Source of the DNA: Azolla caroliniana
Lineage: Eukaryota; Plantae; Polypodiophyta
DNA length: 64,000 nt
Assembly: GCA_043228905.1 (NCBI GenBank)
Contig: JBHGNT010000011.1
Location: 17,236,001 to 17,300,000 of the forward strand
Direction of reading: 5' to 3'
A program made the translations under genes and the position numbers. Below are positions 13,341 through 36,682 of this stretch, piece by piece. Numbering within the stretch: the first letter of the stretch is position 1; every line of letters begins with the position of its first letter. Under the pieces are notes generated by a model. It was not told where the DNA came from and did no database searches. It saw only the letters and a program-made list of their open reading frames with translations.

Positions 13341-14473
13341 TTTTAGACATTCTTGATGCAATTGTTTTGGCTGTTGTTGTCGATGTGCTGAATGGGATGT
13401 GTGGTGTCGTCTCCGTCTCTATGTAGCCGGGTCGATCCGGCGTTCCTAGGTCATGGAACCACTCTTGGTGTTACGTCATATGATGTGAGGTGAAGGAGTC
13501 GACGAACCACACGTCTTCCGAGTTGGAGCTGCTTGTGGAGTCGGACGTCGTCATAGAGTTCACTCTATGTCTCATTACGAATAGCCCACCGCATTCGGAG
13601 TTGGTGGCGTTGTCGAGATATTACGCAAGTGCGTGTGGGAACGAGGCGGGACCGCGGGGGTCTCGAACCAAAGAGCAAGCGAGGGAGGAGAAAGAGAGAG
13701 AACCTGCTACGCAGGACCGGGGATACACAGGGACACGGCCCTTCAGCACGGAGAACGCGAACAGACACCGACACTGACAGATGCGAATGACTAAATACGT
13801 ATATTAACAAAATGGCTAACACGACTACAACCCTCGATGGGGCACAGGTTGGTTACAACCGAACAGGCCGGCGAACAGATGCTGATGCTTGTTCGCTTCG
13901 ACGCACAAAGGGGGTAGCAGGTCGGAGGTGCTGCCGGAAGCACTCGGGCGTTCCTCGAAACAGCGCGAGCCTCCTCGGAACCCTGCACAGAAAGCTATGG
14001 AGCTCAAGAAGGAAGGAAACAGAGAGAGAAGCGTCCAGAAACGGTCCGACAGCACTTCGTCCTCTCTGCGCGAGATGCCTGCAATAGCTCTTTCCTGCTC
14101 CTTATATAGGCCGACGAGCAGGCCGTCATGTCAGCTTTATTCCCTGTCCCTTTCGAACAGGGATCCGCTCCGTTCTTCACGCATCCGCGTAGTTACGCCG
14201 CCGACTCGTACAGTTCCTTAGCTCGCGCGCGCGACCGAAAAGACTGTTCGCGCGGTCTTTGTCTCCACTTGTGTTAGGGCCCGTTCCTGCCGATTATCCT
14301 CCTAATTCGCTTCTATGTACAACTTGGAGCGTGCGCGCGTGAAGAACCGGTTCCCACGCCTTGGTGCGCCGATTCCGCTTATGGACGGTTTTCTTCACGA
14401 CATCCGCCCCCACCTAACCGCGCATCCTCCGGTATGCGCCAAGAGAGTTGGGACGGAGAAAACCGGCCCGTCT

Positions 14474-17400: not shown

Positions 17401-17957
17401 CCCCCACCGATTTTGAGCTCCCGGAGCGTCTCGTTGGTGAAGGTGTGTCCTATGCAGGCCGGATCTCGTAAGCTGGGGTCCGATGCAACCCCTTTGATTC
17501 GCGACTCGCTGCCCTCCGGTAAGGGCACCGCAACTGGCCTCACCTTCCGGTCCACAGTCTTGTACTTGGTGCTAACTCGGGCCGTCCGTTCCGACTCGAG
17601 CCCTCGACCGAAGTCCGCGATGACTTCGTACATTTCTTCGGAACATACCGGTATCGTCCGGTCTTCGTTAAGGTCTTCTTCGACTACCTTCCCCAGCATT
17701 CCCAAGGTGTCGTCGAAGGAGACTACCTCCACGGCTCCGTTGATTTCTTCGTCAGGGCCGAGAACTCCGCACGCTCGAAGTCTCCCCTCCGTCTTTGTTT
17801 TCTCTCGGCCGGCGATGCCGACCATCGTACATGCTCCGCTGTCGGAGAAGCAAAATTTCCTACCTATTGTACACGGTTTTATCGTACAGATGTGGGGTTT
17901 TCCCGGAGCATCCGGACTGTCGCGGCCCCACGCCTTGGCAGTCCTCTCTAAAAATCC
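14474..17957 (-). pseudogene. pol: Pol (RT, RNase H, integrase) of the gypsy element, with two frameshift lesions
   Basis: RT: LPQGGTNS, FLDD. RNase H: TVDTS, RELW, ETDC, ADMLSR. Integrase: HHCC, DDE, GPY motif. Frame breaks near 16390 and 15930. Confidence 0.92.
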
Positions 17958-20101
17958 TCTCGGTTTTCGGAACCGAGGGAGTCGCGGTTACGTTCGTGGT
18001 TCGGCCGTACCGTCAGAAACTGGACCGAATGGCGCCCGTCTTGGCTTTTGACCCTCGCGTAGGCCGAACCATTGTCCAGCACCTTGGTCTCCATTCGCGC
18101 CGCCGTGATGTACGGCTCTCCCAGTATGACCGGATGCGAAGACGTCTCCTGCACGAAGAAGTGCTGGTCAATCTCGACGTCGCCGATCTTGACTCGCACA
18201 TTCGGACAGGCCTCGTGCAGTTCCTCGGTGGCGCGCATTGCTGCCCTTATTTTCCACCCGTGCTTGGTGTTGATCGGCCATTTGCCCTTCTTATAGAAGT
18301 CCATGGACATCAAATTGATCTCCGATCCGTGGTCCACCAAAGCTATCACCGGTTCCTGAACATCGCCGATCTTCACCGGGGTTTCCGTGGTCGCTCGGGC
18401 CCAGTGTGGTCTCGAATAGTGGCTTTCCGCCCACTCGTCTCCCAGCGTCATGTCGTCTAGGTGCGTCGTCCGCACTTCCACCGGTCTTTCCAGTTCTGTC
18501 TCCGTTGACAGCCTCTTCCGTTTCACCAAGTCCACGATGGAGTCGTGGAACTCCTTCTTGGCGATTCCCAGCACCTCTCGTAACGACAGTTCCACCTTGT
18601 TGTCGAGGATCCGTTCCTCCAGGACCTTTCGTAAGTCCGTGGTCCTTTCTATCTCCGTCCCCAGACGGTACCCGCCCTTCTGGGGTTTATCTTGCGTACC
18701 AGCCCCGCCGGCTTCGTCCCGTCGTGGCCCGGACCGGGTCTCGTATCGTTGTGAGGGCCCGGTCGTCCCGGGTTTCCCCACCCGCTTCTCTTCTACCAGA
18801 GCCTCGTAGTTCTGGCAAGCGGCTTCCATGAAGCCCGTCTTTTCCTCGACCGGGTCGCTCCACCCGGTCATCTCCCGTACCCGTTTCTCCGCACGGTCCG
18901 ATTCCTCCCTTTTAAGCCTTGCACCGGCAAGGCCTTCCAGCATCGTCGGCCAGAATCCGGCTTTGCTTTCCCTTCGGGTCTCGCCGCCCCCGACTCGAAT
19001 GCCGGCCGACGCCGAGTAGTGGACGGTTTCCGCGTGTCGGGCCGCCGCCTCTTCCATCAACCTTTTCATACCACCTCGCCTGTCGTTTCGGCTCAGGGCC
19101 CTTCGGGTGTCGCTGGCATGCACCCGTCCTTCCCACAGGTACACCACCCTGTTCCTCAGCGCCTCCGCGAAGTCGCCGCAGTCCTTCCGAATGTGGCCGA
19201 CTTCATCGCACCACATGCACCTGTTTCCTGCCGCCGGCCGTCGGTCACGAGCCGGTTCGCCACCTTCCCTTCGGGCCTGCGCGATTTGGAGGTCCTTTAT
19301 CGCCCTCGTCAATTCCTCCAGCGCCGCTCCTCCGGTTGAGCCTCTGACTACGCCGGTCGAAGCCGAACCGGTTTCCAACCACTCTCGGGTCTCTTCCTTT
19401 CGCACCTGTGGCGCTGGTTCGAGCTTCCTTGCTGCGACCGAGCCCGACCCGGTTGCCCCGTTATCCACCCATTCTCGCCGTTTGTCGAAACGGCCACAGA
19501 CTTTCTTGACAGCCGCCCAGTCGGTAGTGAGCCCGTCTTCGGTTTCCAGCAAGAGGCCCACTTGCTCCCGATCCCGCTCGTCGACCGACTTGACAAACAG
19601 CAAGACCCGGCTCGTGTCCAGGATGGTTCGGTCGAGCGCCGAAAGGCGCGCAAAGTTTTCCTCGAACTCCCGGAGGAGTGCCGACGCGTTTCTTCCCTTC
19701 CCCGGGGACTCCACCCATTCCATGAACCTTCGCTTCGAAAGCCGGAGCGCGTCGTCCAGCCCGTATTTCTCTAGGAGCCGACCTTCGAACTCCTCCCAGG
19801 TACGGCTCTCCGCCCGCACCTCGAGCACCTCCGCATGGATGCTCGGCATCGCCACTCGGGGAAATCCGGCAAGACGCCTTTCTTCCGGAATGTCCTGCAT
19901 CAGCATCTCTGCACCGTAGGACGCCAAATACTTCGTGGCATCCTTCCCATCGAACCGGCCGATCGTGCCGACGACCGCCTCAATAGCTCTGTCGAGGGCA
20001 CCGGTGCCCTCGCGCGCGTTTACAATCCGATCCACGGCCGAAGCCATGGCCTCTGCAAGATCCGACCCCCTCATCTTCTGCTCTTCTGCCGCCTCCTTCA
20101 C
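17948..20101 (-). CDS. gag: Gag-protease polyprotein of the gypsy element
   Basis: 717-aa ORF with Zn knuckle CMWCDEVGHIRKDC, aspartic protease ALVDHGSEINLM and VILGEP. The first ATG is a few codons inside the listed ORF. Confidence 0.9.
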   Translation of the reverse strand: MKEAAEEQKMRGSDLAEAMASAVDRIVNAREGTGALDRAIEAVVGTIGRFDGKDATKYLASYGAEMLMQDIPEERRLAGFPRVAMPSIHAEVLEVRAESRTWEEFEGRLLEKYGLDDALRLSKRRFMEWVESPGKGRNASALLREFEENFARLSALDRTILDTSRVLLFVKSVDERDREQVGLLLETEDGLTTDWAAVKKVCGRFDKRREWVDNGATGSGSVAARKLEPAPQVRKEETREWLETGSASTGVVRGSTGGAALEELTRAIKDLQIAQARREGGEPARDRRPAAGNRCMWCDEVGHIRKDCGDFAEALRNRVVYLWEGRVHASDTRRALSRNDRRGGMKRLMEEAAARHAETVHYSASAGIRVGGGETRRESKAGFWPTMLEGLAGARLKREESDRAEKRVREMTGWSDPVEEKTGFMEAACQNYEALVEEKRVGKPGTTGPSQRYETRSGPRRDEAGGAGTQDKPQKGGYRLGTEIERTTDLRKVLEERILDNKVELSLREVLGIAKKEFHDSIVDLVKRKRLSTETELERPVEVRTTHLDDMTLGDEWAESHYSRPHWARATTETPVKIGDVQEPVIALVDHGSEINLMSMDFYKKGKWPINTKHGWKIRAAMRATEELHEACPNVRVKIGDVEIDQHFFVQETSSHPVILGEPYITAARMETKVLDNGSAYARVKSQDGRHSVQFLTVRPNHERNRDSLGSENREDF

Positions 20102-22153
20102 GTCGGGTTCACCAAAGATGTCGAGATATTACGCAAGTGCGTGTGGGAACGAGGCGGGACCGCGGGGGTCTCGAACCAAAGAGCAAGCGAGGGAGGAGAA
20201 AGAGAGAGAACCTGCTACGCAGGACCGGGGATACACAGGGACATGGCCCTTCAGCACGGAGAACGCGAACAGACACTGACACTGACAGATGCGAATGACT
20301 AAATACGTATATTAACAAAATGGCTAACACGACTACAACCCTCGATGGGGCACAGGTTGGTTACAACCGAACAGGCCGGCGAACAGATGCCGATGCTTGT
20401 TCGCTTCGACGCACAAAGGGGGTAGCAGGTCGGAGGTGCTGCCGGAAGCACTCGGGCGTTCCTCGAAACAGCGCGAGCCTCCTCATAACCCTGCACAGAA
20501 AGCTATGGAGCTCAAGAAGGAAGGAAACAGAGAGAGAAGCGTCCAGAAACGGTCCGACAGCACTTCGTCCTCTCTGCGCGAGATGCCTGCAACAGCTCTT
20601 TCCTGCTCCTTATATAGGCCGACGAGCAGGCCGTCATGTCAGCTTTATTCCCTGTCCCTTTCGAACAGGGATCCGCTCCGTTCTTCACGCATCCGCGTAG
20701 TTACGCCGCCGACTCGTACAGTTCCTTAGCTCGCGCGCGCGACCGAAAAGACTGTTCGTGCGGTCTTTGTCTCCACTTGTGTTAGGGCCCGTTCCTGCCG
20801 ATTATCCTCCTAATTCGCTTCTATGTACAACTTGGAGCGTGCGCGCGTGAAGAACCGGTTCCCACGCCTTGGTGCGTCGATTCCGCTTATGGACGGTTTT
20901 CTTCACGACAGCGTAATTTGTGAGTTGTCGGCTTGTTGAAGCCGACTCGCTTCTCTTTTTCCGACACTTCTCTTTGTGGTGGCCGATTTTGCCGCAATAA
21001 TTGCAAGTAATGGGCCACATTTGCCAACCTTGTTCGGCATGGAAGCTCCCCCTTCTTCCGAAGGTTCCTCGATGGCTTCTGTCTTGCTGTTGAAGGTTTG
21101 AGTTCCCTTCGTTCGATGGGTCAAATCGACCTCTTCTACCGCCTCAACCTCGTCCTCGGCCACCATCCGAATCCAAGAAGAACATTTTTGCTTCCTACAT
21201 CTTGGTCTTGGTTCGGATGAGGTTCTCTTTTACCAATAACATTGATTGGAGGTTGAAGTACAAAGGAGGGTTTTCCCTCGCCAAGATTGCCATCCTCAAC
21301 GAGTCGAATCCTTGTGTGAGGCCACCCAAGCATACTTAACCATCTCGTCTTCGTCGACGTTTATGTTGATGGAGCCAAGCGAGTCACAAATGCTCTTTAT
21401 CTTGGCGGTGTAGTCCGACACAGACATATCTTTTTGTCGTATGTTGTTCAACTCTTGCCGAAGTTGAAGCTTGCGTGCCGATGTATTGGCGGCGAAAATC
21501 TTCTTGAGATTCTCCCACGCCTCTTTAGGCGTCTCGACGTCTCGAATGTGGCTAAGCATGTGGTCATGGACACATGTTGCCAAAAAATACATTACCCGAC
21601 TTGCTCCTTGCTCCCACGTTGGGTAGTTGGCGTTTGTGATGTCGGGTTTGGTTTCGAGTGCGTTGTTGATGTAGCTCCAATACCCTTGGCCGACTAGGTA
21701 TTGGTTCATCTTGTACTCCCAAGATGAATAATTGCTCCGGTCTAGCTTTTCACTAGGGAGCGAGCTACCCATTTCTATGTTCATGTTTATTAGTGTCTTC
21801 TCTTCTTTTTCTTCTTTAGTTTTTCTTCCTTCGATCACGTACCCGTGCTACGTAGCAGCACTACAATAGCAGATAGTCAGATTTGTCGTCGGCGTTGTGA
21901 ACACACAATCACGAAGAGTCGGGTGGGCTTAGTGAATGTGCTAAACCACACACTCTAATACCATGTTAATAATTAGGTAATTAAGCAAGGGTTAATTAGT
22001 ACCTAATTATGTGATTAAGTTAAGCAGCGAAAGATTATGTGATATGTGTGTGTATGTGTGTGAGAGGAAGAGAGAGAGGAAATTATACTTATGAACAATA
22101 TAAAATGGGGGATGCTTAATGAGAGTGTACTATATTAAATGTACTTGGGAGTG

Positions 22154-22239: not shown

Positions 22240-23275
22240 AAATGTACTTGGGAGTGGAGGATCTAGAATATCTCACTTAAGTACAAGGTCCTATTTAAGG
22301 ATTTACGGTCAACACACTAACTAGATTGTATCTAGGTAACTACTAAGTTACGTGGTTGACTAACTAACTAAATCTAGTTGAGCTTGATATCTCAACACTT
22401 CTCCTCCACATTATCATTGAACTCTACATATGTTATGATGTATCATCATTATCAAGTAGCGCATCCCCTTAGTGTATGGTTAGCATTTTCATGAAATGTT
22501 GTCAAATATAGATAATCTCCTTTGCCTTGTCTTAACCGTGATTTGATGGAGGATTGTTCACCAAAATATGTAGTTATGGTGGATGGAGTTATGAAGACAC
22601 TTTTAGAATTTTAGAAAAAATATGTTTTTACATAGATGCATAGATTTCATCAATTATCTTTTCATATTAGTTGTAGCTTGGCCAAATTGGAGTTAGTGTA
22701 AAACAACTTTGATACATTACATCTTCTTTTCCAAATACATTTAACTTTTTGGGGTTGTTTTTTTCTTACTTGCTTTTTTGCGTTTGGCGCCTTTGTCTCT
22801 CTCTCTCTCTCTCTCTCTCTTGCTCTAACGGCTCTCTCTATCGTTGTCGTCGCCGTCGTCTGCAGCCGTTGTCTGCAGCCGCTGCAACCGTCGTCGTCTG
22901 CTCTCTCTCTCTCTCTCGCTCGCTTCCTCGTCTCTCTCTGTCGCCGGCTAGTGTCGTCGCCGTCGTCGTCGTCGTTGCTGCCGTTATCTGCAGCCGTCGC
23001 CGTCTGCCACCATGCAGTCGTCCACCGTCTTCTGCTGTCTGCTGCCGTCGTCTACCGTCGTTTGACGACTGCCACCGTCACCGTCGCCGTCACGGGGTGT
23101 TTTCTTCTCCGTTCTTGATGTGGTGAAGTACCCTTTTCTCGACGAGTTCGTGGGTGGGTTCTTTTGGTGTGCTCGTCCCGTGCTACAAAATGCCGATGTG
23201 ATTGCGACACACACACAAACTCGGCTAAGTCTCGAACCCATTTATTTTACCCTTTTTTTTCTTATTGACACCACA

Positions 23276-24088
23276 ATGACGTCTAGACGGACTAAGGAAC
23301 TTAAGGATATACAAGACGAGGCTATAAGTAAGGAGGACTTTTTAGATATGTTTAATCGTTTAACAAAAATAGAGATGGATATGAAAAAATGGGTGAAAGA
23401 CACCAAAACCTACAAGAAAAAAGATAGAGAGGAAAAAGACGCCCTCAAGGCCGAAATAGAACAACTTAAAGTAGAAAACATCGACCTTAAAAAACAACTT
23501 AAGGACATCGAGGTATCTCGAGAAGACGGTGAAATATCCTCTATAGAGGATATAAAGGACGAAATTAAAAAAGTTAAAGAGGAAGTTAATAATAACATAG
23601 AGTTAGCTAAAACGGGTTGGGTAGATGTGGTTAAAAGAAACATTAAAAAAGAAATAAAAGATGAAAATATTGTTAACACCACCCTTGAAGAAGAGAAAAT
23701 GCGTCAGGCCCGACGCTTAAATGTACGTGTCACTGGGCTCAAGGAAGGTGCATCCCCAAATGAGGACGCACAAACACTTGGGAAAATGTTAGGGTACACA
23801 GAGGCCCTACCTATCACCAAACCATGGAGGGCCGGGCGTGACACAACTAGGAAGAGAGCCTTAGTCCTTCAATTTAAAGACTTAGACTCTAGAATCACTT
23901 TCTTTAAGAAGAGACCAATCCTTCGAGGAATGGATGGGGACCCCATCTATCTCGATGAAGACCTCACTAAGATGCAAATTGAGCACCGCAAGAGTTGTAT
24001 GCCACGAGTTATGCAAGCTCGTAAAGAAGGCCATCGCGCCTTTTACCGAGACGGGCGAGTGATCATAAATGATCGCACTACTAACTGA
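23276..24088 (+). CDS. LINE ORF1 protein (coiled coil plus RRM-like domain)
   Basis: Open frame from ATG 23276. Heptad-rich N-half followed by R..N..V.GL.E and IYLDEDLT motifs typical of LINE ORF1p. Confidence 0.8.
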   Translation: MTSRRTKELKDIQDEAISKEDFLDMFNRLTKIEMDMKKWVKDTKTYKKKDREEKDALKAEIEQLKVENIDLKKQLKDIEVSREDGEISSIEDIKDEIKKVKEEVNNNIELAKTGWVDVVKRNIKKEIKDENIVNTTLEEEKMRQARRLNVRVTGLKEGASPNEDAQTLGKMLGYTEALPITKPWRAGRDTTRKRALVLQFKDLDSRITFFKKRPILRGMDGDPIYLDEDLTKMQIEHRKSCMPRVMQARKEGHRAFYRDGRVIINDRTTN

Positions 24089-24094
24089 CGGCGT

Positions 24095-27000
24095 GTGGCC
24101 CATGTGACAGAAAATGCACTTAGGATGACCCTATGGAATTGTAATGGCGCACTCTGGGCACACCCCGGCCGCCTAGAGGAGATACTAAAGGTATATGATA
24201 TACTTTTCTTGGTAGAAACACATCAGAGCCCAAATAGAGGACTCCCACGGGTCGAAGGATTCCGTTGGGAGTCCGCTTTTAGACAAACCTCACGTCGACA
24301 CACTACTAGGGGATCTGGAGGTGTCGCGATACTATTTCGTAGAGAGCTACATAATAGGATAGAAATAATGAAGATAGACCCAAAAGCTCGTTTTATGTGG
24401 GTGAAAGTCTCCACAAGCAAAGACCATGCAGTATTTTTCGCCATTTGTTACTTTCCCCCAAAAGGATCCCGTTATAATATTAGTGGCTTGACGAGATTAG
24501 TCGATGAAGGAATGCCACATGGGCCTTCTCCATACGAACCCCTATCGGATGACATAATCCGATATTCTTCCCAAGGAGAAGTATTTCTTGTAGGAGACTT
24601 CAATGCGAGAACCCAATCCCGACAATGCACAGTATTTCAGATGAATAGAAACCTAGAAATGGTAAATGTTGATCCTTTAGACATAGGCACCACACGTAGA
24701 TCAAAGGATCAAGGTGCGGACGCCACGAGCTTTGGCCATCATCTGCTCGAACTTGGCAGTCGGCACCAGATGGTCATATATAATGGTTTAGCTAAGTGGC
24801 CGGGCTCGGAAGAGCTCACATGTTTCCCACATGGAGGAGGGGAAAGCACAGTTGACTATCTAATAGGGCGCCCGGTAGCTACCCGCTTGATTAACTCCTT
24901 CCGAGTGGCCCCATGCCCTATTGGCGCAGACCATAGCTTCTTATACTTCGAGCTAAAATGTGATATCTCTAAGGTCACCAAGTCTAGTCAACCATGCCAT
25001 CACACCACAATACATTTCACACATGAGCTCTCTGACATATACTCTCAACATGTTCAGGCCCATCTCCCCTCCATTGATCCCTCTCTACCGTTAGAAAGCC
25101 TTAGTACAAAACTCACACACATCCTTCACTCCGCAGCAGCTAGTAGTTTCCCATATACAAAACACTCAAATCAAGGTAGATCAGGATCAATGCCACAAAA
25201 TAAATGGTATGACAAGGATTGTAGGGACCTACATAGACAACTTACAGTATCGCAACTCAATGGTAGTATTACCTCCACACAAGCTCGCAAAGAAATGCGT
25301 AAGATGACACATCGTAAGAGACGAGCGTGGGAGGCATCCCAATACTGGGAACTCTACCATATGCTCATGAGTAGCGATTGCGCCACGGCATGGAAGAGAC
25401 TACGGGAGCCAAGACCACAAACACCCATCGAAGATCCCGAAACTTGGCACACATATACAGAGAGACTTTACCAAATCCCAAACCAACCACCTTTTCCAAT
25501 GCCTTCCATACCCCGGCCTACCACGGGGACACTTTTCACGACCTCTAGGGTCATGAAGGTCATAAAGAAATTACAACATAGGAAGTCCATGGACCACACA
25601 GGATTGCGAGCAGAACACATTATATATGCGAGAGAGTGCCTAGCTCCTTGCTAACTCTAATCTTCAATCGTGCCCTTGCGGAGGGTTTTCCACCACAGTG
25701 GACTATGAATACAGTGACCCCCATACATAAAGGGGGGGACCCCATGGACCCAAATACATATAGGACCATTATGATAGGCCATACCCTTGCTAAGTTATAT
25801 GGTGCAATAATGGAAGCAGAGCTTAGCGACTACATGGAGACCCTAAACCTTCGTGCACCTGAACAAGCTGGCTTTAGACGAGCCTTCTCCACTATTGATC
25901 ACATCTTCACACTTAGATGCCTAATTGACCAAACTAGGGCTCGCAAGAAGAGATTATATTGTTGTTTTGTGGACTTCCGCAAAGCCTTTGACACAGTCCC
26001 TAGAGATCGATTGTCTGATAGACTTAAAAGCTTGAGGATACTAGATGATATGGTATGGGCCATCTACGCACTATATGAACAAGTGTCCGGGTGTGTCCGA
26101 TGCCCAGGTGGCCTATCCAATCGTTTCACTAGCACTATTGGTGTAAAACAAGGTTGCCCCCTATCACCGACGCTTTTTGGGATCTACATTGATGAGATCA
26201 CAGATTTTATTGCTCGTGAGGGAGGCACCGGAGTGGTCCTTGGGGATACGCAGGTTCGTATCTTGCTCTATGCGGATGACATAGTTTTGCTCTCTGAATC
26301 CGAACACGACCTACAGAGGCACCTCAATGCCTTAGATGACTTTTGTGTACAACAAGGATTGGTAGTGAATCTAGGGAAAACGAAAGTCCTTATCTTCCAC
26401 ACATCGGCCCAAGTTAGAGCTAAGTGTCACCTAACTATCTCCCATAGCCCAGTCGAGGTGGTTGGATCGTACGTATATCTCGAAGTCACTTTTAGTGCCC
26501 GCTCAGGTAAATTTTCGATGACACAGGCAGCGAAGGATAGACTCACGAGAGGACATGCATCCCTCTCACTCCTAGAGAGACAATGCCACCAAGCACACTT
26601 TCAAGAGCCACGGACTAAAGGGTGGCTCTTTGACTCATTAGTGACCCCCTCCCTCATGTATGCATCAGCAGTTTGGGCTCCAGGATTACCATCCTTCATG
26701 TGGACGCAATTAGAGAGACCATTGGTGATGATGCTATCACGCCAACTCCGAAGCAAATCGATTGTACCACATGACATTATTAGGGCCGAGTTCACGTTAC
26801 CCCCAATGCTAGTAGAGGCACTTTTTCAACTTGTAGTCTTTATTGATAGGATACATAGCCAACCACATGATAGAATATCTCACCAAGCCTTTAAGGCCTC
26901 TCGATCATTGTATGAGTCCGGCTATACTAGCTCATGGTATGGCATGATGGTGACTTGGCTTCTTGCAAATGGTCTAGACATTAATAACCTACCTCCCCTT

Positions 27001-27825
27001 AGGTACAACCACACGAGTGATAACACCTTAATCTCTCATGAGAACCGCAATAAAGTAATACGCCAAGAAATATGGCAAATTTACACTCGGTGTAAATGGA
27101 TCACCCCACTAGAGCCACTCCCATCTAAAATGTCGTACTATAAGAAACACTTCATGCACTTCTCTGAGTTAGGTTTTATCACACGGCCAAAATATCTAGA
27201 TGTATTCTTACCACATGCACTAAGGGTTGCCATTGGACAACTTAGAATATCGTCTCACCAACTTGAGATTGAAAATGGCCGTACTAGTGGAGTCCCTAGG
27301 GAGGAAAGGATATGTAGGTTATGTCACATAGAGATAGAGGATGAGTACCACTTTACATGCAAGTGTCCAACCTATGCCGAGATAAGGGCAAAATACCAAG
27401 ACATACTTGGTCCGTCTCCCACCCTCCCCAAACTATTAGATACTCTAGATATAAAGAAATTAGGCAAATACATTCTAGAGCTAAAACAACACAGAGAGAA
27501 TAAATTACAAAATGTTGACAATAATGTTGCTAATGATCACGAACATGTAACAAATGCAGTTTTTCAGGAACCTGAGGAGACAACGAATGTCGACACACTT
27601 GCACCACTCGGCCTTTCCATTGATGAGGCAGAAAACCAGAGAAGAACCAGACGTCCTCAGGTTCCGGGTTTCCAAACAACTCAACGTGATGTGGAAGCAA
27701 TATTGAAAATAAGGGAACGTGAGCTACACCGCCTAGAAGCCATGGCTAGGGCACTCTCTACATTGGAACCCACATCAAGACCCTTTGACCCCCCACTTCT
27801 TTTCGAGAGGCTTGGGTGGAAATAA
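24095..27825 (+). pseudogene. LINE ORF2 (AP endonuclease and reverse transcriptase), single 1-bp frameshift
   Basis: WNCNG, LVETH, GDFNAR, VDY, ADH (EN). FVDFRKAFD, QGCPLSP, LYADD (RT). CRLC..EDEYHF..KC. One frame break at ~25645. Confidence 0.92.
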
Positions 27826-28071: not shown

Positions 28072-28962
28072 TAATTGCTTCATTACTAAAGAAAAAACAC
28101 AACCATGACTAACTATAAAGTATAGAACCCTTGTATCTAGGGATCTAAAGACTACTACGACTCCAAACTCAATGCCACCCTACACACCAATTCAAATGGT
28201 GAATATGATGATATGTGACCTTGCAAAGTTCTCTCTCTTCATGGTTGAGATTTCGTGACTTCTCTAGCACCATCAATTGCCATAAAAGAAGTCCTTTTAA
28301 CTTTAGTACATATTTTCTCACCCCAACTTGCAAATCAAAAGTTAAGGCATTCCGCATATTCCAATTGAACCATAGCCCCCAATACTTCAAGAACTCAAAA
28401 ATAATTTGGAAATGAGGCATTGGTTCATCGTTCTCCATATGTGCAAAAACCCAACTAAAGGAAGATAGACTTACTATAGTTAGAGACATCCACACCAAAC
28501 TAATACACCTCCAAACCATCCTTGCCATCGGGCATGAAAGAAATCGATGTCTACTATGTTCCAATTCCACCGAACAAAAGAAACATGATCCTTTAGTAAT
28601 GTTTCTTTTTTTTAATGCATCCCCCAATGGTAAAGTTCCAAGCATAGCTCTCCAAATAAATACCATCAATCGAGAACACCAACCTGCCTTGATCACATGA
28701 AGCCACCAAGTAATGGGCTTATGAAAACCCCATATCTTTATAACCCTTACTTCCAACCACTTATATTTGTCAATCAACTTGTGATAAGTAACATTTGTTG
28801 AGATCATAGTCAATCTCTTATTTTCAACAAACCTCCAATCAAGCTCTTGAGATCACCCATCTAAATCAAGAATTGGCTCATATGAAGATAGTATTTCTTG
28901 CCAATTATCCCAAATAAAGGTATAACCTTTTGGAATACAAAATTGTTGCCCAAAGAAGAGTA

Positions 28963-29300
28963 TGTTCCGGAGGTCCGGATAATAGCTATTTAGTAATATT
29001 CTATTAACTTAGTAATGAGGGATCCAGATGGATGTACCGATCTAGATCTGCACCGTTTTGTATCTATACCGATTGGAGTATGCATCGTTTTGTATCAGAA
29101 CCAGATACCTATATAAAGGATCCAGAGTGTATGTATTGAGAGCAAGTAATATAATCTTTGTTGTTTATCTTGCATACTTGTCATTTGTACTTTCATGTTT
29201 TAATCTTACGTGTGTTAATATATGCCGGATGTTGTGTGTTCCGGATACATAACCGGTTTATCTCTAATTGTCTATGGACCAATCCAACATCCCGACCACA
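28963..29300 (+). mobile_element. Probable solo LTR (~340 bp) inserted in the LINE
   Basis: Starts TGTTCC and interrupts the LINE frame. Shares GCACCGTTTTGTA and CCTATATAAAGG with the LTR at 813-1196. Right boundary ambiguous (29300 or ~29311). Confidence 0.55.
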
Positions 29301-30576
29301 CCTTTGGAGAAAGTATTCTAGGAAGGGAATACCTTGTGTTTGCGGCTAAGGTCTAGCCCAAGATAAACAAAAATGTTGATCTTGTTTTTCAAAAGGCCAT
29401 TAATCTTCTTTGTGACACCAAAATAACATCCTTGACTGTTACCAAACCCAATCTAGTTATCTAATTAAATTGAAGGTTAAGAATTTGTTTAGCTTCCCAC
29501 CTCAACAACCTTGATGTCGCTGAAACCTCCATTTGTAATGAATTAGCACATCCCCTTTCTTGTGGAGGATGCCATTCCACAAAATCCAACATACTTTGCC
29601 AAGATGTCAACAAATGATTAACTATAATAGACCCTACACATTTGACATCCCTATAAGAATTAAGTACATTCCACCAATTAGCTTCAACCTTCATGTTTCC
29701 AAGCTTAATTCATTTCTTCTCTATAAAGTACGCTACCATTTCCGTCCAACGTTGTCGTAGTGTAGGTTGCACACTATGTGGAAATTATATTTTTGTCCCT
29801 CCGGATAGAGAATGGAGTGCTCGGTGAGAACCGGAAGAAAACGGCATACCGGCAAGGAGGAAAAACGGCATACCGGCAAGGAAGAGCCGGATAAAGAGAC
29901 ATAAATGTAAAAAGAAAGGAAATACTCACTACTGCGCAGGGCGTGATTCGAACTCTACACCTCCACGTTGACAAACCCCAACCTTACCATTACATTAACT
30001 TATCTTAAGTGCTTTAAATATAGATTTAATATGTATAAGACCTTTATTTATGCATACCTTTATTAAAAGGTAAATCGTGTATTCTTTAATATATGAAAAA
30101 GAAAAAACACGAGACACTAAAAATAACTCATGCACATCTAGCGTGCATGAGCCCTATACTTAGGAAATAAAAAAGCATCACATGCACATTTAGTGGACAT
30201 GAACACTTTTTGTAAAAAAAAAAAGCATGAAGCCATGCTTAGCTCTTCCTTCCTTATATAAGGAGGAGAGAAATATGTAAAGAGTTGTTGATTATTTGGA
30301 TTAAGAATTAATCAATATAAAAATTATTCGTGGGATTCACGATTTATACATCTACTTCTCTCTTAACACCCTAAGTACCAATTAATATAGTATACTCGTG
30401 TGATTCACGAGTTTCTTATCTTTCTCTTTGCTATTTACTCATAATTAATCTCTATCTCACGAACTTCTTTCTCCTAGTCCAAGACCTCTGTGGTTCCCAC
30501 CCGACTCACGCAACGATCCGGAGCCGAAAGGCACGACACAGTTGGTGAACCCGACGTGAAGACGGGTGGCAAGGAG

Positions 30577-32616
30577 ATGGAGGCTCAACAAGCTAACAAT
30601 ATGATGGCGATGTTCGAACGGATGCTTCAAGAACAACGCACGATGTCGGAGATTTCGGCATCAGTAGAGCGGCTCGTGCAACGCAACGGGCAATTTAATG
30701 GTAAGGATGTGTCGCGATATTTGCAGGACTACAAGGCGGAGATGCTCCGGTGCCGGGCTTCGGAAGGACTGCAAGTGACATCCTTTAACCGGGTGGCGAC
30801 CGACGGGCTTCAAGGGAGTATCCACGGGTTGCAACAACAAAATCCGACGTGGGAAGCATTCGAAGAGGCGTTAAAGACCACGTTTGCCATCGAGGACTCC
30901 TCCAAGGCAACGCGGAGGGGATTCGAGGATTGGGTGGAAACGTCAGGTAAGGGGCTGAAGGTCCTCGAAGTGTTTTCGGCATTCGAAAGTCGGTTCGGGA
31001 GGTTGTCCGCGAGAGATCAAACTATTCTTGCACCGGACAAAGTCATCATGTTTTTGCGAGCTGTGGACGTCCGGGACCGGAAAGATCTCGGAGTGCTTCT
31101 TGAGGACACGACCACCGAAAGCGGCCTCACCGAAACATGGGAAAGCGTGTGGGATATCGTCGCGCGGTACACGAAGAGGGGGCAATGGCTTGCCAACGAA
31201 GAAAAGAGGGTTTCGGAACCGATTCCGAAACCGAGAACGGGATTGGAAGACCATCAACCGAGGGCTCGGGAGATTACGGCCGAGAAGGGAGTCGACGCGT
31301 CTACGGTGGAGCAGCTGCTGAAGGAGATGGAGAATCTAAAGATCGCGATGGTGAAGAAGTCGGATGACCGCCCCACAAGCTCCAAATATACGGATCGACG
31401 GTGCATATGGTGCGATAGCGCCGAACACGATCGGAGGGATTGCGACGACCATAAGGAGGCGCTACGACGGGATCTCATCTACTACGAGGGAAACCGGATT
31501 CATTCGATGGACTCTCGGAAGCCACTCCGACCGAACTTCCGGAAAGGCGGCATGAAGAAGGTGCTCGAGGAGGAGTTAGCGGCAAGAAGCAACTATGCGA
31601 CAACCGCGGGAATATGTGTCGGGGAGTCATCGGGAGCGAAGGCGTCTTTCTGGCCGGAGGTGCTAGGAAACACCGAGAAAACCGACTCCAACGATATCCG
31701 AAACACCGCGGAAGGCGTCCGGGAAGCTACGGGATGGGAGTGCCCTGTCGACAAGAATAGCATATACGCCCTGTGTCAATTACATGAGGTGTATGTGGAC
31801 GAGAAACGACGGCGCACGGAGGATGCGGCCGGACCATCGAAGATACCGGAAAGCTGGAACTCCGGAGGTAAGGGAAAAGAAAAGGCGACTCCGGCATTCA
31901 AGCTCGCCTCGGACATAGAACAACAAACCGACTTGAAAAGAGTGTTCGAGGAAAGAATCTTGGATAGCCGGGTAGATTTTTCGCTGCGGGAACTACTCGG
32001 AATAGCGAAGAAGGAGTTTCACGATCTTCTCGTGGATCTCGTAAAAAGGAAGAGACAAAGTACGGAGGAAAATGCTCCAAGGGTGAATGCAAATACCGTT
32101 TCAATGAACGACACCGAAGTGGAAGGCGAAATTCCGAACTCCCACTATACAAGGCCACACTGGGCACGTGCGACTACGGAGACTCCGGTCCGAATCGGCA
32201 ACATCAAAGAACCCGTGCTAGCATTGATTGATCACGGATCGGAGATCAACTTGATGTCCAAGGAGTTCTACCGAAAGGGGAAGTGGCCTATAAACACCAA
32301 CCATGGATGGAAGATTCGGGCAGCCACGAAAACGACAGAAGACCTATTTGCGGCTTGTCCGGATGTGACGGTAAAGATCGGGGATGTCGAAATTGACCAA
32401 AATTTCTTTGTGCAGGATGAGGTTTCACATTCTGTCATCCTCGGCCAACCCTTTATCACGGCTTCACGGATGGAGACGAAGGTGCTCGATAGTGGTGCGG
32501 CTTTTGCGCGAATTCGGAGCCAAAACGGAGGGAAATCCGTCCAATTCCTAACGGTGCCGGCAAATCACGAAAGGAACAAGAGGGAACTCTTGTCCCAAGT
32601 GAGAATGGATTTTTAA
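30577..32616 (+). CDS. gag: Gag-protease polyprotein
   Basis: Uninterrupted ORF with CIWCDSAEHDRRDC knuckle and ALIDHGSEINLM protease. Clearly homologous to 17948-20101. Confidence 0.9.
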   Translation: MEAQQANNMMAMFERMLQEQRTMSEISASVERLVQRNGQFNGKDVSRYLQDYKAEMLRCRASEGLQVTSFNRVATDGLQGSIHGLQQQNPTWEAFEEALKTTFAIEDSSKATRRGFEDWVETSGKGLKVLEVFSAFESRFGRLSARDQTILAPDKVIMFLRAVDVRDRKDLGVLLEDTTTESGLTETWESVWDIVARYTKRGQWLANEEKRVSEPIPKPRTGLEDHQPRAREITAEKGVDASTVEQLLKEMENLKIAMVKKSDDRPTSSKYTDRRCIWCDSAEHDRRDCDDHKEALRRDLIYYEGNRIHSMDSRKPLRPNFRKGGMKKVLEEELAARSNYATTAGICVGESSGAKASFWPEVLGNTEKTDSNDIRNTAEGVREATGWECPVDKNSIYALCQLHEVYVDEKRRRTEDAAGPSKIPESWNSGGKGKEKATPAFKLASDIEQQTDLKRVFEERILDSRVDFSLRELLGIAKKEFHDLLVDLVKRKRQSTEENAPRVNANTVSMNDTEVEGEIPNSHYTRPHWARATTETPVRIGNIKEPVLALIDHGSEINLMSKEFYRKGKWPINTNHGWKIRAATKTTEDLFAACPDVTVKIGDVEIDQNFFVQDEVSHSVILGQPFITASRMETKVLDSGAAFARIRSQNGGKSVQFLTVPANHERNKRELLSQVRMDF

Positions 32617-34619
32617 AGCGGACTGTTGCGGAGTGGGGAAGTGATAGTCCGAGAAGCCCTGATACCCCACACAGGAAGAAAAGTCTCGGAGCAAAACAAG
32701 TACGAATCGGCCCGGATGGGGCATCTACGTACACAGCCGTAACCGGAGGAATGAAGAAACAATACCGACAAGTGGAGGATAAGTTACGGTCGGCATCAAT
32801 AATAAAAGAAGACGAAGAAATCGTGGGAGTGATCGAGGAAGTGTTCTATGGGAATACACTACAACGGCTTGAAGAGCTTGCGGAAGATAAAAGCCAAGGG
32901 AACCGGGTAGTCCCGGTGGAATCGGTCGAGATGTACGAGATCGTTGCGAAAATGGGGCCGGGTGCGCTCCGCAAAGAAGAAGCAATGGTAAGTACGAAAT
33001 ACAAGACCGTGGAGAAGAAGGTGAAACCGGCCGCGGGACCACTACCCGCCGATAGCGAACAAAAGAAGAAAGAAGTCTCGGGAGATCCGACACTTCGGAA
33101 GTCCGTGGATATCGGACATGCCTTCACAGATGAGACCCGGAAGAAACTTCGGATCGGTGGAGGTGGGTTCCTCTTACAAGAAGAAGAAAAACGGTTTCGA
33201 GAGATGTTGGAGCAACGCGGCAAAGCATTCGCGTTCACATCGAGGGAGATCGGATGCATTGATCCAAAGGTAGTGGAGCCGATGGTGATTTTCACGATTG
33301 ATCATGTACCGTGGAACCTGAAGCCGATTCCGGTGCCACGGGCGCATATTCCGAAAGTCATCGACTTGCTCAAGGAGAAGGTGGCGATGGGGATTCTAGA
33401 GCCATCAAGTGCTCCGTACTCAAATCGATGGTTTACGGTTCCAAAGAAGAATGGGTCACTCCGATTCATCCAAGACTTGCAACCGGTGAACAAGGTCACG
33501 ATCCGGAACTCGGGAGTCGGTCCGATAGTGGACGAATTCGCGGAAGCTTTTGCCGGACGTGCGATATACTCCATCGGGGACCTATACTCGGGGTATGACC
33601 AATTCCAACTAGCCGTGGAGAGCCGAGACATCACTACCATGCGGACACCGATAGGACTAGTTCGAATGTGCACACTACCACAAGGAGCGACAAACTCGGT
33701 TGCACATATGATGAACGCGATGAACAAGGTGCTTCGAGATTGCATCCCGGAGATAACGATGCCGTTTCTAGATGACATTCCGATGAAAGGATGCGCGGTG
33801 GAAGAAAAAGATGAGACTATGGATGATCGGGGATGCCGAAAGTTCGTGGTCGACCATATTCATGATTGCGAGAAAGTGTTGCGAAAGCTAGAAGATGTGC
33901 ACCTAACACTTTCCGGGGAGAAATCGGCATTCGGGCAAGAAGAAATATTGGTGGTCGGACATCTATGTGGACCCTACGGCCGAAGACCGTCACCAACAAA
34001 GATCGATGCGATTCAAGCTATGAAGGAAGTATGTGAGTCAACATCGGAAGTCCGAAGGTTTCTAGGTGCGTGTGCATTCTATCACATATGGATTCCGCAC
34101 TATGCACATATAGCGGACCCGCTCTATCACTTGTTGCGGAAAGGTAAGAAATTCGAGTGGAAACCGGAACACACTAAAGCCATGAGGAAGCTCAAGAAGA
34201 CACTATGGAGGGCGGAATCACTTAAGAAGCCAAGCTACGAGCGGCCAATCATAGTAACGGTTGATACAAGTCCAACCGGTATCGGGTGGGTCATCAATCA
34301 AGCCGACTCGGATGGTTCGCGGTATCCGATCCGATTTGGAGCAAAGGTCCTCAACGAAAGGCAACGCGGATATGCACAAGTCAAAAGAGAATTGTGGGGA
34401 GTCGTGTCGGCGATAAAATCGGATCGGGATTATTTGATCGGAGCTGAAGTGGTGATCGAGACGGATTGTCTTCCGATACTCGGGATGATGCGGTGTTGTA
34501 CGATACCGGATGTGGCTATGCTAAGGTGGATTGCATATGTCAAGTCACTTAATCCGGAGGTTCGACACATCTCGGGGAAGGACAACGCGGTAGCGGACAT
34601 GTTATCGAGGGCGCGGTAG
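32607..34619 (+). CDS. pol: Pol (RT and RNase H only), in the -1 frame relative to gag
   Basis: Open from the GGATTTT site at 32607. LPQGATNS, FLDD, TVDTS, ADMLSR, then TAG. Integrase absent. Confidence 0.9.
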   Translation, partial: GFLKRTVAEWGSDSPRSPDTPHRKKSLGAKQVRIGPDGASTYTAVTGGMKKQYRQVEDKLRSASIIKEDEEIVGVIEEVFYGNTLQRLEELAEDKSQGNRVVPVESVEMYEIVAKMGPGALRKEEAMVSTKYKTVEKKVKPAAGPLPADSEQKKKEVSGDPTLRKSVDIGHAFTDETRKKLRIGGGGFLLQEEEKRFREMLEQRGKAFAFTSREIGCIDPKVVEPMVIFTIDHVPWNLKPIPVPRAHIPKVIDLLKEKVAMGILEPSSAPYSNRWFTVPKKNGSLRFIQDLQPVNKVTIRNSGVGPIVDEFAEAFAGRAIYSIGDLYSGYDQFQLAVESRDITTMRTPIGLVRMCTLPQGATNSVAHMMNAMNKVLRDCIPEITMPFLDDIPMKGCAVEEKDETMDDRGCRKFVVDHIHDCEKVLRKLEDVHLTLSGEKSAFGQEEILVVGHLCGPYGRRPSPTKIDAIQAMKEVCESTSEVRRFLGACAFYHIWIPHYAHIADPLYHLLRKGKKFEWKPEHTKAMRKLKKTLWRAESLKKPSYERPIIVTVDTSPTGIGWVINQADSDGSRYPIRFGAKVLNERQRGYAQVKRELWGVVSAIKSDRDYLIGAEVVIETDCLPILGMMRCCTIPDVAMLRWIAYVKSLNPEVRHISGKDNAVADMLSRAR

Positions 34620-36597
34620 CGGACATTGTTAGCTTGTTGAGCCTCCATCTCCTTGCCACCCGTTTTTCACGTCGGGTTCACCAACTGTGTCGTGCCTTTC
34701 GGCTCCGGATCGTTGCGTGAGTCGGGTGGGAACCACAGAGGTCTTGGACTAGGAGAAAGAAGTTCGTGAGATAGAGATTAATTATGAGTAAATAGCAAAG
34801 AGAAAGATAAGAAACTCGTGAATCACACGAGTATACTATATTAATTGGTACTTAGGGTGTTAAGAGAGAAGTAGATGTATAAATCGTGAATCCCACGAAT
34901 AAATTTTGTATTGATTAATTCTTAATCCAAATAATCAACAAAAACTACAATGTGCTCCCCATCCTTATATAGTGATGGGAGAGACTAAGCATAGCTATAT
35001 GCTTTTTCTAATATGTTCATGCACACTAAATGTGCATGTGATGCTGCTTTTTTTTTATTTTATTTCCTAAGTATAGGGCTCATGCACGCTAGATGTGCAT
35101 GAGTTATTTTTAGTGTCTCGTGTTTTTTTTCTTTTTCATATATTAAAGAAATACACGATTTACCTTTTAATAAAGGTATGCATAAATAAAGGTCTTATAC
35201 ATATTAAATCTATATTTAAAACACTTAAGATAATTTAATGTAATGGTAAGGTTGGGGTTTGTCAACGTGGAGGTGCAGAGTTTGAATCACGCCCTGCGCA
35301 GTAGTGAGTATTTCCTTTTTTTACATTTATGTCTCTTCCTTGCCGGTATGCCGTTTTCTTCCTTGCCGGTATGCCGTTTTCCTCCTTGCCGGTATGCCGT
35401 TTTCCTCCTTGTCGGTATGCCGTTTTCTTCCGGTTCTCACCGAGCACTCCATTCTCTATCCGGAGGGACAAAAATATAATTTCCACATAGTGTGCAACCT
35501 ACACTACGACAACGTTGTACACCTTCAAACATAAATCAAATGAAAGTAAATCGACGAGCCATCATATTTTCTATAGATTCAACATTCATGCCCCACCAAT
35601 ACGCATCAGAGTACAAACATGATTCCATGCCAACTACGAAAGCACTTTTCCTTTTGTTTTTCCATAACAACATTCACATTGAGTGTGGCAAGATTTCAAG
35701 AGCTTTCTTCGACCATGGGAGGGAAGGAAGATGATAAGACACCATAGAGACCATAATCGATTGGACTACCTTAAGTCCTACATGAAAAGGCCAAATTTGA
35801 GACCTCCAGTACACAAACTTATCCTCCGACTTTTTGGATACCAACTTAATAAGTTTCATATGAGAAACTTCCACCCCAATTGGATATCCAAGGTGGTGAC
35901 AAAATCATACCTGATGTACTATCTTTCTGACCACCCCAACCCTAACACATATTGTTATGTACATGAAATGAGGACAAATTTACGCATATTAATTCTTAAC
36001 CATGAAGCATTTGAAAACAATTCCCACACATCTCTTGTCTTACTAATATTTTCACGATTAGGTGCCAAAAACATAATACAGTCATCTGTGAGAGTGTGAA
36101 CAATACATGAGTTCCCTAATGATAACCTTAGTCCAATCACTTAATCCTCCATAGCCATGTTGTGTAACTTAACATGATTAGGATGTGTCACAATAGTGAA
36201 TAGTAAAGGACTAACCGGGCATCCTTGTCTAAATGATCTCTGAATAGAAATCGGTTGTGTTACTCCTCCATTAAACATCAAATGTGAAACCAAACCCTCC
36301 CCTAGTCTGTATATCAACTTAGACATACGATCACCAAAACCCATATGAGACATCAACTGATTTATAAATGACCATCCACATTATCATAGGCTTTCTCAAT
36401 ATCCAATTGTAGCAACACTAATTCTTGTTTAGACTCCTTTGCATAGTCAATTGCCATTTGAACATTTAAAATATTATGTAAGGTTTCTCTTTTTGCTAAA
36501 AAGCTATATTGAGCATTATGAATAATAGAAGGTAAAACCTTATGCAACCTATTGGCCATCACTTTTGTTAAAATCTTGTACATCCCCCACATCAATG

Positions 36598-36682
<85 letters not shown>

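What the first reader, a model, noticed from the sequence alone, without database searches (positions are those of the whole stretch)
29753..35511. Ty3/gypsy element with two inverted LTR+PBS arms, no integrase, yet a clean 4-bp TSD
Seen: the left arm (LTR, tRNA-Trp PBS, first gag codons; 29753-30600) recurs as its reverse complement at 34625-35511. Both outer ends are therefore U3 ends, and both promoters point inward. Gag-PR and RT-RH are fully open, while integrase, PPT and a direct 3' LTR are absent. ACGT flanks both sides, and removing the element plus one ACGT restores the host LINE frame (FMFEGVQRWTEMVAYFIEK), so it entered in one integration-like event. Known: LTR retrotransposons have direct LTRs; inverted termini occur in DIRS elements, which need a tyrosine recombinase, and none is here. 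Inference: either (a) concerted integration of U3 ends from two different cDNA molecules followed by end-joining repair, or (b) a propagating fold-back derivative. In either case it could produce ~850-bp hairpin or convergent dsRNA that silences the family.
Basis: partly seen in the sequence, partly recalled or inferred. Interest (0 to 1): 0.88.

Follow-up and report, generated by a model that had tools for sequence, protein, structure and literature searches.

The report
Retrotransposon with two back-to-back left ends
This 5.8-kb plant insertion is made of the front halves of two different copies of a common jumping gene joined facing each other under one insertion scar; it is likely a one-off copying accident that the element's integrase still inserted, and it is predicted to be unable to copy itself.

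Summary
The structure is real. Two inverted LTR+PBS arms (29753-30600; 34625-35511) enclose open gag and RT-RH, with no integrase, PPT or direct LTR, and ACGT on both sides. The host LINE register is exact across the site. The parent is an ordinary high-copy Phygy-like Ty3/gypsy family with integrase, PPT and direct LTRs (L001).

New here: the arms come from two LTR subtypes, so this is not a fold-back of one copy. The inner joint has a 7-nt templated filler of the polymerase-theta type, and the right arm stops 42 nt past its PBS.

Best reading (0.55): integrase inserted the U3 ends of two unfinished cDNAs in one step, or of a cDNA fused beforehand, and end-joining sealed the middle. Main rival (0.25): a second, inverted insertion into the re-created palindromic target, then deletion.

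Self-propagation is mechanistically blocked. Silencing is untested, and an LTR-started hairpin would be about 317 bp, not 850. The scan noted similar two-left-end insertions on other DNA, including this genome (unchecked notes).

The parts
29749..29752 (.). left copy of the 4-bp target duplication (ACGT, fits NCGN)
   Evidence: LINE register
29753..30538 (+). LTR of copy A (786 bp), U3 end outermost; TATA-like box at 30255; same subtype as L001
30543..30558 (+). primer-binding site of copy A, 4 nt after the LTR (tRNA-Trp by recall and Phygy convention)
30577..32616 (+). gag(-protease) ORF from its ATG, open; DUF4100 hit; protease not detected by Pfam
32493..34619 (+). pol ORF in the -1 frame: RT and RNase H, ending at a stop created by the joint; integrase absent
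34586..34600 (+). template of the 15-nt direct repeat at the joint (6-nt primer repeat, 7-nt filler source, 2-nt microhomology)
34618..34624 (+). 7-nt templated filler between copy A (ends 34617) and copy B (starts 34625)
34625..34667 (-). leader and first gag codons of copy B, broken 42 nt after the PBS
34668..34683 (-). primer-binding site of copy B
34688..35511 (-). LTR of copy B (824 bp), U3 end outermost; second LTR subtype (different TATA block, more 23-bp repeats)
35512..35515 (.). right copy of the target duplication (ACGT)
28172..29748 (-). host LINE, 3' part (from P0121 residue 745 on; zf-RVT), decayed
35516..36598 (-). host LINE, RT part (P0121 residues 382-744), decayed

Best explanation
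This is a 5,759-bp insertion made of the 5' parts of two different copies of a Phygy-like Ty3/gypsy family joined back to back under one 4-bp duplication; it likely arose in a single integration event in which the family's integrase joined two U3 ends to the target while end-joining repair sealed the two unfinished inner ends. Shown: precise LTR termini on both sides, the TSD, two LTR subtypes, loss of both 3' halves, and a templated filler at the joint. Inferred: RNAs of subtypes A and B were reverse transcribed together. Plus-strand synthesis stopped at the end of RNase H in A and 42 nt after the second strand transfer in B, so only the U3 ends were double-stranded and usable. Integrase supplied in trans inserted both ends with its 4-bp stagger. 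Polymerase-theta-type joining sealed the middle, either after integration or between the two cDNAs just before it; a reverse-transcriptase jump is a less typical source of such a filler. The product is predicted to be a dead end, since it has no sense 3' R and no PPT. If either promoter fires, the RNA would carry a stem of about 317 bp over R-U5-PBS-gag start.
For: Both ends are exact LTR starts with an NCGN 4-bp TSD, the signature reported for Phygy (PMC6317226, passages and one supplement row). No host base is lost or gained. The left arm follows L001's LTR type and the right arm differs at several places along its length; left-type sequence appears as loose ends on the right arm in family contigs. 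So two templates were used. The joint has the repeat structure of loop-out SD-MMEJ (15-nt repeat at 34586/34612; 10 of 200,000 random joins gave a comparable match; model in PMC2943611, passages; fillers as a hallmark of plant TMEJ in PMC10923293, passages). B breaks 62 nt from its LTR, out of about 6.4 kb that were lost, close to the size of a plus-strand intermediate (a post hoc argument). Among the 40 of 277 rows shown, near-fixed differences number 6-7 in 2.0 kb of A and 2-3 in 0.89 kb of B, compatible with equal age. Co-packaging of different family members is established (PMC6894440, passages). Truncated retroviral DNA ends joined to further viral DNA in either orientation occur in aberrant HIV integrations (PMC5041404, passages).
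Against: The target is special. It is an 8-bp palindrome, and its CA/TG flanks mimic an LTR-TSD junction. Only 2 of 1051 CG sites in the rest of the window have such flanks, and 20 of 1051 reach an 8-bp palindrome. A single event does not need this coincidence, and the sibling's target lacks it. The filler fits chromosomal repair after any route equally well. No central PPT lies at A's break. The aberrant HIV proviruses usually lack a normal TSD, so they are only a partial precedent. I found no paper showing two-donor U3-U3 integration of a retrotransposon in vivo.
Confidence: 0.55

Rival explanations
1. Same-site double insertion, then collapse. A inserted normally, B later inserted in reverse orientation into A's 3' target duplication, and the resulting palindrome of about 14.5 kb lost its centre (about 2.4 kb of A, 6.4 kb of B) by break and end-joining.
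For: Every TSD of this lineage remains an NCGN target in the same register. Both LTR-host junctions re-create CAACGTTG (29747 and 35510), a rare context. An inverted tandem of two Rover LTR elements with a palindromic motif at the junction is reported in Drosophila and read as a double insertion (PMC5932611, passages). It explains two subtypes, the TSD and the filler.
Against: It needs a second hit on one 4-bp site in a large genome. It gives no reason for B to end 42 nt after its PBS. The rough age signal shows no gap between A and B.
Confidence: 0.25
2. Repair after insertion, using the 6-bp terminal inverted repeat. A's 3' part was lost and replaced by B's 5' end, either copied from another locus or left by a nested antisense insertion, with the outer join made at the microhomology shared by the two LTR ends.
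For: The two LTR ends share 6 nt in inverted orientation, so a join there leaves the old TSD intact. Private rearrangements of this family are common (50 joints in 3.9 kb, 15 shown). Polymerase theta can copy from unrelated donor molecules (PMC10923293, passages).
Against: It needs a break or join exactly at the LTR terminus and the use of 6 nt in place of about 800 bp of LTR homology. Copying from A's own 5' end, which would explain the palindrome best, predicts matching arms, and the arms are two subtypes.
Confidence: 0.12
3. Assembly artefact (chimeric read or mis-join of two copies).
For: No read from the source sample was available, so the joint is not independently confirmed.
Against: A fold-back read would give identical arms running into the same flank. 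Here the arms are different subtypes, the flanks are the two correct halves of one LINE in exact register, and the joint has a templated filler.
Confidence: 0.05
4. A propagating non-autonomous derivative with inverted ends, moved in trans.
For: Gag and RT-RH are open, both arms keep a PBS, and both ends are integrase substrates.
Against: There is no sense R at the 3' end for the first strand transfer, no PPT, and no DIRS-type internal complementary region or recombinase (PMC7192593, passages). The family contigs listed at the two breakpoints run on into normal integrase-side and normal gag sequence (34617 in X1, X6, X15; 34625 in X1, X2, X3, X15). Open frames are expected at about 1% divergence (48 of 4075 nt from L001).
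Confidence: 0.03

Closest known systems
Phygy (non-chromovirus Ty3/gypsy; Neumann et al. 2019, PMC6317226, passages and one supplement row)
   Same: 4-bp NCGN TSD (ACGT here, ACGC in the sibling), PBS assigned to tRNA-Trp, compact internal region filled by gag-pol, order RT-RH-INT in the parent.
   Different: The parent is about 7.25 kb, just under the listed 7.66-9.97 kb. This copy has inverted arms and no INT or PPT. No tree with REXdb sequences could be built.
Template-switch complex LTR insertions (Sabot and Schulman 2007, PMC1950507, passages)
   Same: Two parent elements fused and integrated as one unit under a single TSD.
   Different: Those are direct, three-LTR structures with matching outer LTRs; the word 'inverted' does not occur in that text.
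Inverted tandem by double insertion, Rover in Drosophila (McGurk and Barbash 2018, PMC5932611, passages)
   Same: Two LTR elements in inverted orientation at a palindromic target motif.
   Different: There the junction motif is kept between two insertions; here the centre is missing and replaced by a filler joint.
Aberrant HIV/ASLV proviruses (PMC5041404, passages)
   Same: A truncated viral end joined to further viral DNA in either orientation.
   Different: One end is host-inserted and the normal TSD is usually lost; here both outer ends are precise.
DIRS-1 (PMC7192593, passages)
   Same: Non-identical inverted terminal repeats around gag-RT-RH.
   Different: DIRS has a tyrosine recombinase and an internal complementary region. 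This element has neither, and has tRNA PBSs, a TSD and a gypsy parent.
Mu killer of maize (PMC1563492, passages)
   Same: An inverted duplication of a transposon's 5' part that could give hairpin RNA.
   Different: Mu killer is a DNA transposon derivative with shown RNA and silencing; nothing of that is shown here.

Membership tests
Ty3/gypsy LTR retrotransposon (parent family) | pol order RT-RH-INT | tested here: met
   L001 pol: RVT_1, RNase H, Integrase_H2C2, rve (rve below its curated cut-off)
Ty3/gypsy LTR retrotransposon (parent family) | direct LTRs, PBS after the 5' LTR, PPT before the 3' LTR | tested here: met
   L001; sibling 13611-20910
Intact Ty3/gypsy element (this copy) | direct LTRs, integrase and PPT | tested here: not met
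Phygy lineage | 4-bp NCGN target duplication | tested here: met
   2 of 2 elements in the window; definition
Phygy lineage | PBS for tRNA-Trp | tested here: inconclusive
   assignment recalled; no tRNA gene in the window, and 0 of 31 viral loci with the motif were tRNAs
Phygy lineage | RT/RH/INT phylogeny with REXdb Phygy | not testable with these tools
   no REXdb sequences were on hand; nearest named relatives are Riccia proteins (up to 68%) and an Adiantum protein
DIRS order | tyrosine recombinase | tested here: not met
   no such Pfam hit in either ORF; the element's coding space is filled by gag and RT-RH
DIRS order | internal complementary region repeating the outer ends | tested here: not met
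   self-blastn shows only the two arms
Non-autonomous mobile derivative (LARD/TRIM-like) | further copies with the same joint and different TSDs | tested here: inconclusive
   no genome held; contig test in Tried and rejected
Mu-killer-type silencer locus | hairpin transcript and siRNAs that silence the family in trans | not testable with these tools
   no RNA data could be laid; stem size predicted

The most novel reading that the evidence does not exclude
LTR integrases routinely insert pairs of U3 ends from two different, unfinished cDNAs, with polymerase theta sealing the middle. This would be an overlooked one-step route by which an active family makes its own inward-facing, Mu-killer-like locus. 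Here a 317-bp stem covers R-U5, the PBS and the gag start, the part most alike in both subtypes, so this locus could seed siRNAs against the whole family.
Probability: 0.12. Interest if true: 0.75.

Novelty: new variant of a known kind. Interest (0 to 1): 0.42.

Why it matters
If the best reading holds, it is a genomic fossil of two-donor integration, a reaction I recall from test-tube integrase assays and did not find described for a retrotransposon in vivo. It also gives a scorable signature: two U3 ends, one TSD, and a filler joint near a PBS. LTR finders that require direct repeats would miss such copies. Inverted 5' ends with inward promoters are a simple way to make double-stranded RNA against a family, which bears on how silencing of a new retrotransposon starts. 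As a single, probably dead copy without RNA data, its own biological weight is small.

Tried and rejected
Whole genome: none is held, so no copy count or survey of target sites was possible.

Joint in public contigs: the bin 34620-34624 had no cover in 4 of 4 runs (X1, X2, X3, X15) while the other 28 of 29 bins were covered. Contigs drop rare variants and none of these runs is known to be the source sample, so this hole is not taken as evidence for a single copy or for an artefact.

Expression: no RNA holder listed; not evidence either way.

More target sites: the LTR-end pattern gave 1 metagenome contig (L001, no flanks) and 0 viral contigs. The protein search gave 0 confirmed viral loci and 1 short contig in genome contigs.

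tRNA identity of the PBS: 0 of 31 loci were tRNA genes.

Central PPT at A's break: none. The bacterial promoter scan is irrelevant to a plant LTR.

Rejected: fold-back of one copy or self-templated inversion (the arms are two subtypes); a flipped 3' LTR (the right arm carries a PBS and gag start, not a PPT); two neighbouring insertions with the DNA between them deleted (the LINE register is exact); DIRS membership.

Scan notes on tRNA-Arg, PPT-less elements in this genome concern another lineage: this family has a PPT.
Full report
OBSERVATION. The element spans 29753-35511 (5,759 bp). Self-blastn finds one internal repeat: 29744-30600 against the reverse complement of 34625-35520, 89.6% with indels. 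Each arm holds a full LTR (786 and 824 bp), a 4-nt spacer, a 16-nt PBS and the first gag codons. Both outer ends are LTR starts and ACGT flanks both. Gag (ATG at 30577) and RT-RH are open. Pfam finds RT and RNase H; it gives DUF4100 but no protease hit for the first ORF. The pol frame ends at a stop made by the joint. The integrase part of the family has no tblastx hit in or beside the element.

TARGET SITE. The flanks are two halves of one decayed LINE on the minus strand. Against homolog P0121 (87% identical to the query) the right flank ends at residue 744 and the left continues in register, so exactly one ACGT was duplicated and nothing was lost. A related complete gypsy element at 13611-20910 (minus; about 72% identical in pol) has direct 792-bp LTRs (8 mismatches), a PPT, an integrase and the TSD ACGC. 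Both TSDs fit NCGN, reported as the preference of Phygy elements, which have 4-bp TSDs and mostly tRNA-Trp primers (PMC6317226, passages and one supplement row). The TSD is therefore a normal integrase scar for this lineage. The site is unusual in one way: it is an 8-bp palindrome whose CA and TG flanks make each LTR-host junction read like the target again. That context occurs at 2 of 1051 CG sites elsewhere in the window.

PARENT FAMILY. Metagenome contig L001 is 98.4% identical over 4.4 kb and continues past the break into integrase, a PPT and a direct LTR. The parent is thus an ordinary element of about 7.25 kb; copy A lacks 1,588 nt of internal sequence plus the 3' LTR. Twenty of 24 listed runs, from 14 studies, hold the stretch or part of it. 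Single contigs reach depths of 2,786 against 11-25 for the others shown in X1, which suggests roughly a hundred or more near-identical copies; this is rough and not a count. Nearest named relatives are from Riccia and Adiantum, so the host is likely a seed-free land plant.

TWO TEMPLATES. Outside a block around the TATA box the arms differ at 12 of 757 positions; inside it at 13 of 76 plus 19 gap columns. They also differ in the number of 23-bp repeats and just after the PBS. The left arm follows L001 in these places. Left-type sequence shows up as loose ends on the right arm in runs X1 and X6 (read by eye), while the right type is itself deeply covered. Both are family subtypes. This excludes a simple fold-back or self-copied inversion, unless a whole arm was later converted.

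THE JOINT. A ends at 34617, B begins at 34625, and the 7 nt between repeat 34592-34598. The result is a 15-nt direct repeat (34586, 34612) made of a 6-nt primer repeat, the filler and a 2-nt microhomology. Ten of 200,000 random joins gave a comparable match. This is the loop-out pattern of synthesis-dependent MMEJ (PMC2943611, passages), and fillers are a hallmark of polymerase-theta joining in plants (PMC10923293, passages). A slipping reverse transcriptase could leave the same trace (inference). Family contigs at both breakpoints continue into normal sequence. B's break lies 42 nt after the PBS. No central PPT lies at A's break.

MECHANISM. Any model must put a precise U3 end at the right TSD and use two family members. 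(1) One event, 0.55: unfinished cDNAs have a mature U3 end but no mature U5 end (from the standard scheme of reverse transcription; PMC7197481 and PMC6894440, passages). Two of them could be inserted together and their inner ends joined, before or after integration. This accounts for the subtypes, the termini, the TSD, the loss of both 3' halves and B's short length, but not for the palindromic site. (2) Double insertion then collapse, 0.25: this explains the site and has a precedent in an inverted Rover tandem (PMC5932611, passages), but needs a second hit on the same 4 bp and leaves B's break unexplained. (3) Later repair through the 6-nt inverted LTR ends, 0.12. (4) Artefact, 0.05. (5) Propagating derivative, 0.03. 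The sequence alone cannot separate (1) from (2). My first odds favoured post-insertion routes (55% against 30%). They moved on the subtype and breakpoint results, and also on unchecked scan notes of similar insertions in this and other genomes; those notes are leads, not support.

WHAT IT CAN DO. By the canonical scheme it cannot be copied: minus-strand strong-stop DNA finds no sense R at the 3' end and there is no PPT (inference). Both arms keep a TATA-like box (30255; about 34971 on the minus strand). If transcription starts some 30 nt downstream (inferred), the paired part is R-U5-PBS-gag start, 313 of 317 positions, with a 4,024-nt loop; convergent transcription could also pair the 4-kb middle. 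Mu killer shows that such a locus can silence a family (PMC1563492, passages), but no RNA evidence exists here. The locus lies among LINEs, a hAT element and other LTR elements, where silencing of the locus itself is likely.

COMPARISON AND NOVELTY. It resembles DIRS only in outline: there is no recombinase and no internal complementary region (PMC7192593, passages). Published complex LTR insertions under one TSD are direct tandems (PMC1950507 and PMC11899658, passages). Eight searches of the open library for this structure or its silencing role found no description of a gypsy insertion with two U3 ends and one TSD. 'Inverted LTRs' returned three DIRS papers (PMC5633606 and PMC3950715 seen as listings only); I saw 20 of 97 listings. 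Subscription journals and most supplements were not searched, and the Rover case rests on a supplement table I did not open. Verdict: a real, well-defined but probably dead rearranged copy; a new variant of a known kind. Interest 0.42.

Noticed in passing
window 13611-20910 (-): Complete related gypsy element with direct 792-bp LTRs (8 mismatches), the same PBS, a PPT, integrase and TSD ACGC; pol is split over three frames. It lies next to a copia gag ORF (21299-21847, -) and may be nested in that element.
   Followed up: partly
window 30539-30542, 34684-34687, 20115-20118: Both families keep a 4-nt spacer between the LTR end and the PBS.
   Followed up: no
window 30206-30284 versus 34942-35013: The block that separates the two LTR subtypes surrounds the TATA-like box and ends about 30 nt after it, where R would begin; downstream the arms are 99% alike.
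   Followed up: partly
window 29749-29752 / 35512-35515: At the target the host LINE codes Arg where P0121 and the second LINE copy in the window have Pro, so a private change in this LINE copy may have created the CG target.
   Followed up: partly
window 23066-27825 (+): A LINE of another family with long ORFs (340, 521 and 747 aa; endonuclease and RT hits), apparently young.
   Followed up: no
window 4292-6313 (+): hAT-type transposase in two ORFs split by one stop (DUF4371, hAT dimerisation domain).
   Followed up: no
window 10642-12312 (-): Second, more distant copy of the host-type LINE (44-57% to P0121).
   Followed up: partly
L002 46-1386: A 64%-identical relative of this plant gypsy RT-RH fills a 2.6-kb contig of a Streptomyces genome record; likely contamination.
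   Followed up: no
run X2 on window 33966 and 34686: One contig joins pol to the LTR/PBS border on opposite window strands, which is the same orientation in the family's frame; one of 50 joints listed for the family.
   Followed up: no
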